From Escherichia coli (GTDB lineage: Bacteria; Pseudomonadota; Gammaproteobacteria; Enterobacterales; Enterobacteriaceae), in assembly GCF_041886205.1 (NCBI RefSeq), contig NZ_CP169029.1: a stretch of 64,000 bases of DNA; one strand, 5' to 3'. Position 1 is the first letter of the stretch. Every line of letters starts with the position of its first letter. Positions 7,952 to 41,581 of this stretch are shown here, in pieces. A model generated the notes under the pieces. The model was not told where the DNA came from, did not search any database, and saw nothing but the letters and a program-made list of their open reading frames with translations. Position numbers and translations under genes: made by a program.

Positions 7952-8274
7952 ATGACTAAAAATACTCGTTTTTCCCCCGAAGTCCGTCAACGGGCAGTCC
8001 GTATGGTTCTGGAAAGTCAGAGCGAATATGACTCACAATGGGCGACAATTTGTTCCATTGCTCCAAAGATTGGCTGTACGCCGGAGACTCTGCGTGTCTG
8101 GGTTCGCCAGCATGAGCGGGATACCGGGGGCGGTGATGGAGGGCTCACCACCGCTGAACGTCAGCGTCTGAAAGAGCTGGAACGTGAAAATCGTGAACTG
8201 CGCCGCAGTAACGATATCCTTCGCCAGGCTTCCGCTTATTTTGCGAAGGCGGAGTTCGACCGCCTCTGGAAAAA

Positions 8275-8278
<4 letters not shown>
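7952..8278 (+). CDS. IS3-family transposase OrfA (HTH + leucine zipper)
   Basis: [60 protein letters not shown]…. Confidence 0.85.
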
Positions 8279-9166
<888 letters not shown>

Positions 9167-9558: not shown

Positions 9559-9813
9559 GGTGACACCTGCTAAAGTATGCTTTTATAAACCTTAGTGGTG
9601 AGATATGATTTTTGTTTAATTTTTATTTAAAAAGACAATTAAGGTCACATTATCTTGAATATACAACAATAATCGCATTGCAATTTTCTTACACCATAAT
9701 CCTGAAAGCACAAAAGAATGAATAAAAACTAAAGACATTAACAAAAAGCATAAAACGAGGCCCATATAAATATACGAACCTCCATATTTTAGTCGTTTAA
9801 AAACAAATTATTT

Positions 9814-38882: not shown

Positions 38883-39061
38883 AGATAGTCGAATGGTGGG
38901 GAAAAGTCACTCGAATTACGTATGAGATGCCGAATGCCACACTTTGCGTCTTATTCCTCCGACGTAAAGTTGTTTACGCAGCAAGCGCGGAGTATGTCAT
39001 CAGGGTCAAGAATTGAAATTGAGAGATGCCTGAATAGCAAAAAAGCGCCTTTAGGGCGCTT

Positions 39062-39137
39062 TTTTACATTGGTGGGTCGTGCAGGATTCGAACCTGCGAC
39101 CAATTGATTAAAAGTCAACTGCTCTACCAACTGAGCT
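39062..39137 (-). tRNA. lysQ: tRNA-Lys (UUU)
   Basis: Reverse complement is GGGTCGTTAGCTCAGTTGGTAGAGCAGTTGACTTTTAATCAATTGGTCGCAGGTTCGAATCCTGCACGACCCACCA; gene name assigned by position in the operon. Confidence 0.95.
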
Positions 39138-39170
39138 AACGACCCCTTGCGGGATTATGCTGCTTTAATC

Positions 39171-39243
39171 ATTCAGGATGGTGGGTCGTGCAGGATGACT
39201 GGACTTCGTCTCGCCCTTCGGGCCGTTGCTAACGCAACGTTAT
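39171..39243. repeat. Inter-tRNA spacer repeat that starts with the 3' 17 nt of tRNA-Lys (copy 1 of 3)
   Basis: TGGTGGGTCGTGCAGGATGACTGGACTTCGTCTCGCCCTTCGGGCCGTTGCTAACGCAACGTTATCCTTCACG. Confidence 0.8.
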
Positions 39244-39269
39244 CCTTCACGTTCTCTACCAGTAACCAC

Positions 39270-39345
39270 CTTTAAATTGGTGGGTCGTGCAGGATTCGAA
39301 CCTGCGACCAATTGATTAAAAGTCAACTGCTCTACCAACTGAGCT
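39270..39345 (-). tRNA. lysZ: tRNA-Lys (UUU)
   Basis: Identical 76-nt tRNA-Lys sequence. Confidence 0.95.
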
Positions 39346-39403
39346 AACGACCCATATGGGTGTTACCTGAAAGATTTCTACTCGGAACCAATCTTTAAAA
39401 TTG

Positions 39404-39464
39404 GTGGCTCGTGCAGGATGACTCGCTTCGCTCGCCCTACGGGCCGTTGCTGGCGTAACGTTAT
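39404..39464. repeat. Inter-tRNA spacer repeat (copy 2 of 3, diverged)
   Basis: TGGTGGCTCGTGCAGGATGACTCGCTTCGCTCGCCCTACGGGCCGTTGCTGGCGTAACGTTATCCTTCACG. Confidence 0.8.
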
Positions 39465-39491
39465 CCTTCACGCTTAACATCTGAGTTTGAT

Positions 39492-39567
39492 GTTAAAACT
39501 GGTGGGTCGTGCAGGATTCGAACCTGCGACCAATTGATTAAAAGTCAACTGCTCTACCAACTGAGCT
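39492..39567 (-). tRNA. lysY: tRNA-Lys (UUU)
   Basis: Identical 76-nt tRNA-Lys sequence. Confidence 0.95.
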
Positions 39568-39570
39568 AAC

Positions 39571-39646
39571 GACCCGAGTGGTGGGTGATGACGGGATCGA
39601 ACCGCCGACCCCCTCCTTGTAAGGGAGGTGCTCTCCCAGCTGAGCT
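39571..39646 (-). tRNA. valZ: tRNA-Val (UAC)
   Basis: Reverse complement is GGGTGATTAGCTCAGCTGGGAGAGCACCTCCCTTACAAGGAGGGGGTCGGCGGTTCGATCCCGTCATCACCCACCA. Confidence 0.95.
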
Positions 39647-39697
39647 AATCACCCGATACTGCGCTGGATACTACAAACTACTTCCACCGAACCCACC

Positions 39698-39773
39698 GTA
39701 ATTAGTGGTGGGTCGTGCAGGATTCGAACCTGCGACCAATTGATTAAAAGTCAACTGCTCTACCAACTGAGCT
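39698..39773 (-). tRNA. lysW: tRNA-Lys (UUU)
   Basis: Identical 76-nt tRNA-Lys sequence. Confidence 0.95.
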
Positions 39774-39775
39774 AA

Positions 39776-39851
39776 CGACCCGGTGGTGGGTGATGACGGG
39801 ATCGAACCGCCGACCCCCTCCTTGTAAGGGAGGTGCTCTCCCAGCTGAGCT
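39776..39851 (-). tRNA. valT: tRNA-Val (UAC)
   Basis: Identical 76-nt tRNA-Val sequence. Confidence 0.95.
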
Positions 39852-39886
39852 AATCACCCAATACTACGCTGGATACTACAACTAAC

Positions 39887-39959
39887 TATGTTAGTGGTGG
39901 GTCGTGCAGGATGACTCGACTTCGTCTCGCCCTTCGGGCCGTTGCTGATGCAACGTTAT
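39887..39959. repeat. Inter-tRNA spacer repeat (copy 3 of 3)
   Basis: TGGTGGGTCGTGCAGGATGACTCGACTTCGTCTCGCCCTTCGGGCCGTTGCTGATGCAACGTTATCCTTCACG. Confidence 0.8.
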
Positions 39960-39986
39960 CCTTCACGTTTTACTACCGCTTCCACC

Positions 39987-40062
39987 TTAGCGATTGGTGG
40001 GTCGTGCAGGATTCGAACCTGCGACCAATTGATTAAAAGTCAACTGCTCTACCAACTGAGCT
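39987..40062 (-). tRNA. lysT: tRNA-Lys (UUU), promoter-proximal gene of the operon
   Basis: Identical 76-nt tRNA-Lys sequence; operon promoter expected at 40063-40200. Confidence 0.95.
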
Positions 40063-40234
40063 AACGACCCACTTTTTCGTTGCTTTCGGTTTGTTTGATA
40101 TCCCGTGGCAACGGCGGCATATATTACTGATTTCAGACTTGAGCGCAACAAAAATTTCGATGCAGATCACTCAACTGCTTATGATTCGCACGACACGACC
40201 AGAAATAATGCGACTTCTGGTCGTGTGTTATGCA

Positions 40235-41026
40235 TTACATCGCGTTCAGACGTTTTTGTGCCTGTTTAGCGCCATCAGTACCAGGGTATTTACTGATAAC
40301 CTGCTGGTATACGGCTTTCGCTTTTGCGGTGTCACCTTTGTCCTGCATGATGACGCCGACTTTAAACATCGCATCAGCAGCCTTTGGTGACTTCGGATAG
40401 TTTTTCACTACCGAAGCAAAATAGTACGCCGCATCATCTTTTTTACCCTTGTTGTAGTTTAACTGACCCAGCCAATAATTGGCGTTTGGCAGGTAAGTTG
40501 AATCAGGGTAATTTTTGATGAAATTCTGAAATGCCACCATTGCGTCATCCTGGCGGGATTTATCCTGCACCAGCGCAATAGCTGCATTGTAATCCGTGTT
40601 TGCATCGCCGCTTTTCACCGGCGCGCCAGCATTCGCAGTACCAGCATCAGCTGTCGGCGTCGTTGATGCCGCCGCACCGCTTTGATCGCTGCTGGTTGAT
40701 TGCGCCGCTGCACCACCGCTGCTGAGGCTGTCGATCTGCAACAGGATCTGCTTTTGCCGCTCCACGACCTGATTCAGTTGATACTGATTTTCCTGAATCT
40801 GACCACGCAGGGAATCAATATCGGATTGATTATCAGAAAGTTGTTGCTGGAGTTGGGTTAAAAGCTGGCTGTGAGCATTAGAAATACGCTCAAGTTGAGT
40901 GACGCGGTCTTCGACCGAGCCTGAGCCGACACTACTGATTGGTGCCTGAGCAAAAGCGGCCCAGGGGGCCGCTATACCAACCAGTAACGACAGACTCAAT
41001 AGTTGATGTCTGAAGTTACTGCTCAT
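40235..41026 (-). CDS. cpoB: Cell-division coordinator CpoB (YbgF), TPR periplasmic protein
   Basis: 263 aa, signal peptide, coiled-coil Q-rich segment and TPR-like C-terminus. Confidence 0.9.
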   Translation of the reverse strand: MSSNFRHQLLSLSLLVGIAAPWAAFAQAPISSVGSGSVEDRVTQLERISNAHSQLLTQLQQQLSDNQSDIDSLRGQIQENQYQLNQVVERQKQILLQIDSLSSGGAAAQSTSSDQSGAAASTTPTADAGTANAGAPVKSGDANTDYNAAIALVQDKSRQDDAMVAFQNFIKNYPDSTYLPNANYWLGQLNYNKGKKDDAAYYFASVVKNYPKSPKAADAMFKVGVIMQDKGDTAKAKAVYQQVISKYPGTDGAKQAQKRLNAM

Positions 41027-41035
41027 GCAATTCTC

Positions 41036-41581
<546 letters not shown>

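What the first reader, a model, noticed from the sequence alone, without database searches (positions are those of the whole stretch)
39171..39959. Three tRNA-Lys 3'-end-derived repeats in the spacers of the Lys/Val tRNA operon
Three spacers each contain a ~60-73 nt repeat that starts with the exact last 17 nt of tRNA-Lys (acceptor stem and T-arm side) and then diverges into a conserved GC-rich hairpin (GCCCTTCGGGC) and AACGTTATCCTTCACG. They look like partial tRNA duplications retained as spacer structure, perhaps processing signals.
Basis: seen in the sequence. Interest (0 to 1): 0.35.

Follow-up and report, generated by a model that had tools for sequence, protein, structure and literature searches.

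The report
RtT-type tRNA-end mimics in lysT operon
The three repeats are real but already catalogued: they are shortened copies of the RtT spacer RNA family of enterobacterial tRNA operons, folded modules that end in a copy of the neighbouring tRNA's 3' end and whose function is still unknown.

Summary
The window is E. coli. Three spacers that follow a tRNA-Lys each carry a conserved module of about 75 nt. Each module ends, in transcript sense, with an 18-nt copy of the tRNA-Lys 3' end, not 17 nt, and one copy has a mismatch.

Rfam calls all three RtT RNA (RF00391). They pass the threshold only because the real upstream tRNA fills the model's 5' half. One spacer scanned alone scores 40.1 against a cut-off of 45, as a 5'-truncated match. 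They are therefore a short form of a known family.

Comparison across Enterobacterales supports a four-way junction: a closing stem between a 5' arm and the pseudo-3' end, three hairpins, and a free ACCCACCA tail. Compensatory changes support the stems, and G-U pairs outnumber A-C about 4:1 on the transcribed strand.

The same core follows tRNA-Tyr, tRNA-Arg, tRNA-Pro and 5S rRNA genes, with both arms matched to the upstream RNA.

The most likely role is a mimic of a tRNA 3' end that is processed like a tRNA end. This is supported only for a Tyr-type copy. Individual copies are dispensable and polymorphic among E. coli strains.

The parts
39995..40070 (-). tRNA-Lys(UUU), first gene of the operon (lysT in K-12)
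   Evidence: ARAGORN; Rfam tRNA 79.2 bits; K-12 annotation
39860..39994 (-). 135-nt Lys-to-Val spacer holding repeat copy a
   Evidence: Sequence
39895..39969 (-). Short-form RtT module, copy a. 5' arm 39958-39967, P2 39940-39955, P3 39929-39939, P4 39918-39926, pseudo-3' end 39895-39912 of which the tail is 39895-39902.
   Evidence: Rfam RtT 60.2 bits over 39895-40063; fold -27.7 kcal/mol, z -3.59; helix coordinates; pair counts
39784..39859 (-). tRNA-Val(UAC) (valT)
39706..39781 (-). tRNA-Lys(UUU) (lysW)
39655..39705 (-). 51-nt Lys-to-Val spacer WITHOUT a repeat. K-12 has 149 nt here. The difference is exactly one 98-nt unit bounded by the 18-nt direct repeat.
   Evidence: sequence comparison; K-12 Rfam hit L001:1351-1517; population sample
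39579..39654 (-). tRNA-Val(UAC) (valZ)
39500..39575 (-). tRNA-Lys(UUU) (lysY)
39354..39499 (-). 146-nt Lys-to-Lys spacer holding repeat copy b, preceded by an AU-rich 9-bp hairpin directly after the tRNA CCA
39402..39474 (-). Short-form RtT module, copy b, the weakest copy. It has an A-C mismatch in P2 (CGUUAC) and one mismatch in the pseudo-3' end. 5' arm 39463-39472, P2 39445-39460, P3 39434-39444, P4 39425-39431, pseudo-3' end 39402-39419.
   Evidence: Rfam 47.8 bits against 54.4 for the K-12 homologue; core fold z only -0.81
39278..39353 (-). tRNA-Lys(UUU) (lysZ)
39146..39277 (-). 132-nt Lys-to-Lys spacer holding repeat copy c
39179..39253 (-). Short-form RtT module, copy c. 5' arm 39242-39251, P2 39224-39239, P3 39213-39223, P4 39202-39210, pseudo-3' end 39179-39196.
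   Evidence: Rfam 56.7 bits in context. Spacer alone 40.1 bits, model positions 47-130, 5'-truncated. Fold z -3.51.
39070..39145 (-). tRNA-Lys(UUU), last gene (lysQ)
39034..39069 (-). Operon trailer with a GC hairpin and a U-run (AAAAAAGCGCCCUAAAGGCGCUUUUUUGCUAU). K-12 has a long-form RtT plus a second copy of this terminator here; the window has neither.
   Evidence: Sequence; K-12 Rfam hit L001:2184-2309; annotated 'RtT sRNA' in other E. coli records. The terminator is described by Agrawal et al. 2014. The simple scanner did not flag it.

Best explanation
The three repeats are short-form members of the RtT family of spacer RNAs found in tRNA operons.

Each is co-transcribed with the Lys and Val tRNAs and folds into a small four-way junction:
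- A 10-bp closing stem P1. The 5' arm CGUGAAGGAU pairs with the first 10 nt of an 18-nt copy of the tRNA-Lys 3' end, with one A-G mismatch.
- Hairpin P2, CGUUGC/GCAACG.
- Hairpin P3, GCCC/GGGC.
- A short variable hairpin P4.
- A single-stranded tail, ACCCACCA.

The most likely mechanism is that this helix plus NCCA tail presents the processing machinery with the same 3' terminus as the upstream tRNA. The long spacer would then be cut a few nucleotides after the pseudo-CCA and trimmed back, as after a real tRNA. This would release a folded by-product of about 100 nt and leave only a 35-48 nt leader for RNase P to remove from the next tRNA.

What the released RNA does is unknown. Any single copy is dispensable. 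Copies are lost or gained precisely between the 18-nt direct repeats.

The short form derives from the roughly 115-125 nt long form by loss of about 42 nt between the 5' arm and P2.

What is shown: family homology, the structure, and co-transcription (the last from the literature on K-12). What is inferred: 3'-end formation at the Lys-type pseudo-CCA, and any function of the released RNA.
For: Homology:
- RF00391 hits of 60.2, 56.7 and 47.8 bits.
- One spacer scanned alone gives E=5.8e-7 over model positions 47-130.
- K-12 tyrT RtT copies score 133-137 bits and share the core.

Structure:
- On 38 short-form sequences, 94.8% of cells are paired, against 28-49% when the partners are slid. 0 of 500 shuffles reach this.
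- P1 has 4 pairs with changes on both sides. P4 pair 49-58 shows GC18, AU9, CG9, UA1, UG1.
- RNAalifold finds P1 independently in 40 long-form sequences. One pair there shows AU22, CG10, GC2.
- G-U pairs outnumber A-C 39 to 10 on the transcribed strand.

Arms track the upstream RNA:
- Lys CGTGAAGGAT/ATCCTGCACG, Tyr GGGGAAGGAT/ATCCTTCCCC, Arg GGGAGGAT/ATCCTCCC, Pro AGAGGAT/ATCCTCT.
- Within the Arg type, L059 has AGGAGGAT/ATCCTCCT and L078 has GGGAAGAT/ATCTTCCT.
- In Citrobacter youngae (L117) two tRNA-Lys variants in one operon are each followed by a pseudo-end of their own variant.

3'-end mimicry:
- The annotated rttR ends exactly at a pseudo-CCA.
- The Term-seq table of Adams et al. 2021 (PMC7815308) lists a 3' end at K-12 position 1287359. 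That is 4 nt after the pseudo-CCA of the tyrT-tyrV spacer copy, the same offset as after tyrT itself.

Co-transcription: spacer probes detect the full-length lysT transcript (Agrawal et al. 2014, PMC4176162).

Expression of family members: Northern blots in Actinobacillus pleuropneumoniae (PMC4986893).
Against: - No 3' end is listed near the four Lys-type pseudo-CCA positions of K-12 in the same Term-seq tables. This is inconclusive, because the last 50 nt or so of the copies are near-identical and reads may map to several places.
- Agrawal et al. report few intermediates in wild type with the mature tRNA-Lys probe and describe no stable spacer RNA.
- The tail is 8 nt, not the 4-nt NCCA of a tRNA, so the mimicry is partial.
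- Copy b in this window carries two substitutions that weaken the fold. Its core z-score is only -0.81.
- The lysW-valZ copy is absent here and in about half of a sample of E. coli genomes, so constraint on each copy is weak.
- The comparison set was collected with a pattern that fixes P3 and part of P2. Those helices therefore carry no independent covariation evidence.
Confidence: 0.55

Rival explanations
1. These are neutral relics. The modules are leftovers of unequal recombination and duplication within a tandem tRNA array. Gene conversion with neighbouring tRNA genes keeps them similar, and they have no function of their own.
For: - Precise presence/absence between the 18-nt direct repeats. 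The window lacks two units that K-12 has.
- 32 of 60 sampled E. coli records have the repeat-less junction.
- Tandem arrays with 156-178 nt periods exist in Pantoea, Klebsiella and at tyrT.
- Copy b is decaying.
- An Erwinia strain comparison reports an RtT replaced by a tRNA (PMC7542023).
Against: - Compensatory changes in P1 and P4 across genera and across tRNA types.
- The excess of G-U over A-C pairs on the transcribed strand.
- The same core is kept next to five different stable-RNA genes.
- A 10-nt arm is short for gene conversion.
Confidence: 0.2
2. This is a selfish DNA cassette aimed at the 3' ends of stable-RNA genes. A cassette made of the 3'-end copy, an optional terminator and the RtT body integrates at the T-loop by site-specific or hairpin-directed recombination. 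It restores the gene and leaves the original 3' end as the pseudo-end. Repeated integration builds arrays.
For: - The junction lies at the same T-loop position (58/59) in Lys, Tyr, Arg and Pro.
- The 5S-linked version duplicates the last 13 nt of 5S rRNA (AACTGCCAGGCAT) plus about 6 nt of downstream flank.
- K-12 has the order terminator, RtT, pseudo-end, second terminator after lysQ.
- Arrays and strain polymorphism exist.
- From general knowledge: integrases often use tRNA T-loops as attachment sites (Williams 2002).
Against: - No recombinase is linked to the elements.
- They are essentially absent from phage records. They occur only in non-mobilizable 'plasmid' records, several of which are chromosome-sized.
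- The 5' arm adapts to the target, which a fixed recombinase site would not do.
- G-U pairs point to structure in RNA rather than DNA.
- Homologous recombination between the direct repeats explains the arrays and the losses.
Confidence: 0.1
3. The released spacer RNA is a trans-acting regulator. It might modulate the stringent response as an uncharged-tRNA-end mimic, or act through its arm that is complementary to the tRNA.
For: Bösl & Kersten 1991 proposed a stringent-response effect for rtT, as cited; the paper itself could not be read. RtT RNAs are detected by Northern blot in A. pleuropneumoniae. They are differentially expressed in Klebsiella.
Against: No target or phenotype is known for any Lys-type copy. 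The arm is sequestered in P1. No stable species is reported in lysT-operon Northern blots or in the Term-seq tables.
Confidence: 0.1
4. The repeats encode a small arginine-rich peptide similar to Tpr, the 'protamine-like protein' annotated inside rttR.
For: Sense-strand ORFs of 25 and 26 aa in copies c and a (MKDNVA.ATARRARRS.VILHDPP). tpr is annotated within the Tyr-type repeat in K-12.
Against: Unit lengths are 73, 74, 75, 76 and 77 nt, so the frame is not kept. Copy b reads in a different frame. Arg-type units lack the GTG start.
Confidence: 0.03

Closest known systems
RtT RNA (Rfam RF00391; rttR of the E. coli tyrT-tyrV operon, Bösl & Kersten 1991)
   Same: - Lies in a tRNA operon directly after a tRNA.
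- Shares the core AACGUUGC-loop-GCAACG-GCCCGAAGGGCGAG followed by a variable hairpin.
- Ends in a copy of the upstream tRNA's 3' end from the T-loop to CCA.
- Has a 5' arm complementary to that copy.
- Occurs in multiple copies.

   Different: - The Lys copies in the window lack about 42 nt of the model, the GAUGAGAACC...GGUUCGA...CGAGCG-loop-CGAGA part.
- Alone, one spacer scores 40.1, below the cut-off of 45.
- The arms are tRNA-Lys-specific, with one A-G mismatch.
- The units are interspersed between functional tRNA genes rather than forming a tandem array after the last gene.
Functional by-products of tRNA operon spacers (3'ETS-leuZ and related; Lalaouna et al. 2015, recalled from general knowledge, not checked here)
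   Same: RNA released from the transcribed spacers of a tRNA precursor during normal processing.
   Different: Those act as Hfq-bound sponges that pair with sRNAs. No pairing partner, Hfq link or 3'-end mimicry is known or shown for the lysT spacers.
tRNA-like structures processed by tRNA enzymes (for example mascRNA, viral TLS, the YrlA tRNA-like domain; general knowledge)
   Same: A helix with an NCCA-type 3' end that imitates the acceptor/T-arm region of a tRNA.
   Different: ARAGORN and the Rfam tRNA model do not call these modules as tRNAs. The tail is 8 nt. The three inner hairpins have 3-4 nt loops, and there is no anticodon-like arm.
attL/attR duplications left by elements integrated in tRNA genes (T-loop sublocation; Williams 2002, general knowledge)
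   Same: A direct repeat of the tRNA 3' part, starting in the T-loop, downstream of an intact tRNA gene.
   Different: Only about 80 nt lies between the repeats, with no integrase or cargo. A conserved structured core with an arm that adapts to the target is not a feature of att sites. The elements are not found on phages.

Membership tests
RtT RNA (RF00391) | Covariance-model score at or above the curated gathering score (45 bits) | tested here: inconclusive
   In genomic context the scores are 60.2, 56.7 and 47.8 bits. However, the model's 5' half is aligned onto the real upstream tRNA-Lys, with a 43-44 nt insert. Spacer c scanned alone scores 40.1 bits, E=5.8e-7, model positions 47-130, flagged as 5'-truncated.
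RtT RNA (RF00391) | Conserved core, model positions about 62-112 (P2, P3 and the variable hairpin) | tested here: met
   Alignments. The core is shared with K-12 tyrT copies and with 78 units from other genera.
RtT RNA (RF00391) | 3' terminus is a copy of the adjacent tRNA's 3' end (T-loop to CCA) | tested here: met
   18 nt, exact in copies a and c and with 1 mismatch in copy b.
RtT RNA (RF00391) | Outer stem between a 5' arm and the pseudo-3' end | tested here: met
   CGUGAAGGAU pairs with AUCCUGCACG at 9 of 10 positions. Covariation across tRNA types.
RtT RNA (RF00391) | Full-length architecture including the T-arm-like 5' domain (model positions about 24-61) | tested here: not met
   Absent from all three copies. 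The 5' arm abuts P2 directly (GGAU-AACGUUGC).
RtT RNA (RF00391) | Released from the tRNA precursor as a discrete RNA | not testable with these tools
   Family-level support only: a Term-seq 3' end 4 nt after a Tyr-type pseudo-CCA and the rttR annotation. Nothing is listed at the Lys-type sites, and multi-mapping of reads is a caveat.
tRNA gene or pseudogene | Cloverleaf recognisable by tRNA models, or detectable homology to the tRNA 5' half | tested here: not met
   No ARAGORN or RF00005 call on the modules. Local alignment of the spacer 5' parts to the tRNA-Lys 5' half gives p=0.56, 0.12 and 0.04 against shuffles.
Intrinsic terminator | GC hairpin followed by a U-run on the transcribed strand | tested here: not met
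   Terminator-like matches at P2 are on the plus (antisense) strand only, and their number is near the shuffle expectation (3 against 1.5 +/- 1.1).
Phage- or plasmid-borne mobile element | Presence on phage or mobilizable plasmid records | tested here: not met
   4 records in the phage collection. Three carry Salmonella enterica genome names and are 0.5-0.7 Mb long, so they look like chromosomal contigs. One is an unannotated 7.4-kb record. There are 22 plasmid records, all non-mobilizable, several of them chromosome-sized.

The most novel reading that the evidence does not exclude
RtT-type modules may be a general, modular mimic of the 3' ends of stable RNAs. A conserved three-hairpin core is flanked by two arms, and the arms are re-tailored to whichever stable RNA lies upstream: tRNA-Lys, tRNA-Tyr, tRNA-Arg, tRNA-Pro and even 5S rRNA. 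The pairing is maintained by compensatory change on the transcribed strand.

This would imply either a dedicated, still unidentified role in 3' maturation or quality control of stable RNAs, or a selfish element that homes to stable-RNA gene ends.

The Arg(ACG) short form and the 5S-linked form are not captured by RF00391 at its threshold. I found no description of them in the papers searched.
Probability: 0.3. Interest if true: 0.55.

Novelty: already known. Interest (0 to 1): 0.25.

Why it matters
For this window it matters little. The repeats belong to a family that Rfam-based pipelines already label. Klebsiella annotations list four 'RtT RNA' features of 166-170 nt, and RefSeq labels long-form copies 'RtT sRNA'.

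The wider point is that RtT has had no established function since 1991. The pattern seen here gives a concrete, testable hypothesis: a constant core with arms that co-vary with the upstream tRNA or 5S rRNA suggests 3'-end mimicry that feeds into the tRNA and 5S end-maturation machinery.

A practical warning for annotators follows too. The RF00391 hits in Lys operons overlap real tRNA genes and misplace the element's 5' boundary.

Tried and rejected
- **Degenerate whole tRNA-Lys pseudogenes.** Alignment of the spacer 5' parts to the tRNA 5' half is not significant (p=0.56, 0.12, 0.04). Left as unsupported.
- **Peptide coding.** ORFs of 25-26 aa exist in two copies, but the frame is not conserved. 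Rejected.
- **Terminator function.** Only antisense-strand matches, at chance level. Rejected.
- **Phage or plasmid origin.** Not found.
- **Counting the lysW-valZ presence/absence polymorphism with junction queries.** The summary counts were confounded because the tool joins separate pieces. Only the 60-row spread sample could be read: 32 rows show a single 70-nt piece, which is the repeat-less form. 17 rows show two pieces. 11 rows are unresolved, and some of these have K-12 names or coordinates, a genome known to carry the repeat. The figure of 1408 of 5426 genomes is not interpretable.
- **Term-seq look-up for Lys-type 3' ends.** Nothing is listed. This is inconclusive because the copies are near-identical.
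- **Literature.** Bösl & Kersten 1991 is not held. A search for RtT phrases returned only Rett-syndrome papers. The BIME similarity mentioned by Naville & Gautheret may reflect a REP-like sequence seen next to the tyrT repeats rather than the RtT core; this was not tested.
- **Sampling limits.** It was seeded on P3 and part of P2, so the taxonomic range and the conservation of those helices are biased.

Full report
**Locus.** The window matches many E. coli chromosomes at 100% over 38900-40200, for example strain C. ARAGORN finds seven tRNA genes on the minus strand between 39070 and 40070. They lie between cpoB and nadA. [quoted passage not shown] In transcript order the window reads:
- Lys, 135-nt spacer, Val
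- 2 nt, Lys, 51-nt spacer, Val
- 3 nt, Lys, 146-nt spacer, Lys
- 132-nt spacer, Lys, then a hairpin and U-run trailer.

**Observation.** The 18-mer ATCCTGCACGACCCACCA is tRNA-Lys from the T-loop to CCA. It occurs eight times in the window: at five tRNA ends and at three extra sites, 39179, 39402 (one mismatch) and 39895. None is expected by chance. The three long spacers share a unit of about 75 nt.
- The shared block is 18 nt, not 17.
- One copy is not exact.
- In the transcript the repeats end with the tRNA piece rather than starting with it.
- The third unit extends beyond the stated end coordinate.

**Identity.** Rfam's RtT model (RF00391, cut-off 45) hits all three units at 60.2, 56.7 and 47.8 bits. 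The alignments show that real homology covers model positions of about 62-130. The model's 5' half is laid over the genuine upstream tRNA-Lys, with a 43-44 nt insert. Spacer c scanned alone scores 40.1 bits as a 5'-truncated match to positions 47-130.

The reference RtT copies at K-12 tyrT score 133-137 bits. The window copies are therefore a shortened variant of a known family. Aligning them against 40 long-form elements shows that they lack about 42 nt between the 5' arm and the first hairpin.

**Structure.** Single-sequence folds give a four-way junction:
- P1 is a closing stem. CGUGAAGGAU pairs with the first 10 nt of the pseudo-3' end, with one A-G mismatch.
- P2 is CGUUGC/GCAACG.
- P3 is GCCC/GGGC.
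- P4 is a short hairpin.
- The tail ACCCACCA stays free.

The core z-scores are -3.6 and -3.5 for copies a and c, but only -0.8 for copy b.

On 38 short-form sequences from E. coli, Citrobacter, Enterobacter, Pluralibacter, Phytobacter, Pseudescherichia, Hafnia and others, 94.8% of cells are paired. With the partners slid, the figure is 28-49%, and 0 of 500 shuffles reach the observed value. P1 has four pairs with changes on both sides. One P4 pair shows five pair types.

RNAalifold recovers P1 independently on the long forms, again with covariation. G-U pairs outnumber A-C 39 to 10 on the transcribed strand, which favours RNA over DNA structure.

One caveat applies. The sequences were collected with a pattern that fixes P3 and half of P2, so only P1 and P4 are informative.

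**Wider pattern.** In the scanned genomes the same core lies downstream of tRNA-Lys(UUU), tRNA-Tyr(GUA), tRNA-Arg(ACG), tRNA-Pro(UGG/CGG) and tRNA-Arg(CCG). In nearly all cases an exact 18-19 nt copy of the 3' end of the upstream tRNA follows 12-18 nt after the scanned core motif.

The 5' arm changes with the tRNA type, and also within a type when the tRNA T-stem changes. In Citrobacter youngae, two tRNA-Lys variants in one operon are each followed by their own variant of the pseudo-end.

A further version follows 5S rRNA genes. It ends in AACTGCCAGGCAT and has a GGCAGTT arm. It occurs in Pseudocitrobacter, Siccibacter, Superficieibacter, Phytobacter and an E. coli genome. This version and the Arg(ACG) short form are not called by RF00391 at its threshold.

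**Dynamics.** K-12 has five RtT hits at this locus. The window lacks two of them:
- The lysW-valZ unit. The 51-nt spacer equals K-12's 149-nt spacer minus one unit, apart from a single base difference in the retained part. The missing unit is bounded by the 18-nt repeat.
- A long-form unit after lysQ that carries a duplicated terminator.

In a 60-row spread sample of E. coli genomes, 32 rows show the repeat-less junction. The module is essentially absent from phage records. It occurs only in non-mobilizable 'plasmid' records, several of which are chromosome-sized.

**Mechanism.**
- *Shown in the literature:* the spacers are part of the polycistronic lysT transcript. RNase P separates the tRNAs, with help from RNase E cuts in the spacers. 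The authors do not mention the repeats (Agrawal et al. 2014).
- *Family-level evidence for end mimicry:* rttR is annotated to end exactly at a pseudo-CCA. The Term-seq table of Adams et al. 2021 lists a 3' end 4 nt after the pseudo-CCA of the tyrT-tyrV spacer copy, the same offset as after tyrT itself.
- *Inferred:* the Lys-type modules are processed in the same way.

Their sites are not in those Term-seq tables. Multi-mapping of near-identical copies is a likely reason, but low abundance cannot be excluded. The function of the product is unknown.

**Verdict.** This is a real, structured and conserved feature that belongs to an already catalogued family. The interest of the finding as submitted is low. 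The more general question raised along the way is why a constant core acquires arms matched to each neighbouring stable RNA. That question remains open and can be tested.

Noticed in passing
L084:297-449 (Pseudocitrobacter faecalis); also L014, L098 (E. coli), L102, L112, L114, L115: The RtT-like core also follows 5S rRNA genes. It ends in a copy of the 5S 3' end (AACTGCCAGGCAT plus about 6 nt of flank) and has a complementary GGCAGTT arm. In L084 it lies before tRNA-Thr(GGU); in L114 and L115 it lies before tRNA-Asp. RF00391 does not call it at its gathering score in L084, where the spacer is held in full.
   Followed up: partly
L010, L015, L059, L097 (E. coli) and others: tRNA-Arg(ACG) operons carry a short-form module with arms matched to tRNA-Arg (GGGAGGAU/AUCCUCCC, 19-nt pseudo-end). 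In L010, the one such locus scanned, RF00391 gives no hit at threshold. L059 and L078 show compensatory arm changes that follow T-stem changes in the tRNA.
   Followed up: partly
window 39655-39705 and 39034-39069, compared with L001:1420-1568 and L001:2154-2345: Relative to K-12, this strain lacks two RtT units. Each is missing exactly between direct repeats: 18 nt in one case, and 18 nt plus the 36-nt terminator trailer in the other. RefSeq annotates the K-12-type long form as 'RtT sRNA'. It is found at 80% coverage or more in 3075 of 5426 E. coli genomes, and a second copy elsewhere in the genome is possible.
   Followed up: partly
window 39402-39474: Copy b differs from its K-12 counterpart by two substitutions that both weaken the fold: P2 CGUUGC to CGUUAC, and pseudo-end ACGACCC to ACGAGCC. 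The Rfam score is 47.8 here against 54.4 in K-12.
   Followed up: partly
window 39173-39250 and 39886-39966, minus strand: Arginine-rich ORFs of 25-26 aa starting with GTG lie inside copies c and a. They recall tpr, which is annotated inside rttR. The reading frame is not conserved among units.
   Followed up: yes
window 39224-39239, 39445-39460, 39940-39955, plus strand: On the antisense strand, P2 followed by TTATCCTT matches the simple terminator pattern in all three copies. The count is close to the chance expectation.
   Followed up: no
window 8233-8349, plus strand: Rfam ALIL pseudoknot (RF01497, 120.2 bits). I recall this as the frameshift element of IS3-family insertion sequences, which would mean an IS copy lies in the window.
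   Followed up: no
window 40997-41135, minus strand: Rfam CpoB/ybgF intercistronic RNA thermometer (RF02782, 142.2 bits), upstream of the tRNA operon as in K-12.
   Followed up: no
L081:~9700-9760 and L082:~1050-1200 (Pectobacterium zantedeschiae): The P2-P3 core occurs without any tRNA-derived end. It is embedded in a different repeat (…CATAAAAAAACG(T/C)…GGGAACGTTTTTCAACGTTG…). It may be another derivative of the module.
   Followed up: no
L033:1321-2501 (Pantoea sp. IMH): At the syntenic locus downstream of the cpoB thermometer, the Lys operon carries seven long-form RtT hits of 70-86 bits. They lie between and after three tRNA-Lys genes, and the last three form a 156-nt tandem array that includes terminator copies.
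   Followed up: partly
Supplement of PMC7815308, K-12 position 1286692, minus strand: A 3' end is listed about 18 nt after the last tyrT-locus repeat. It appears in the paper's second supplementary table, which I took to be its Rho-dependent (bicyclomycin) set. If so, transcription reads through all the RtT repeats there.
   Followed up: no
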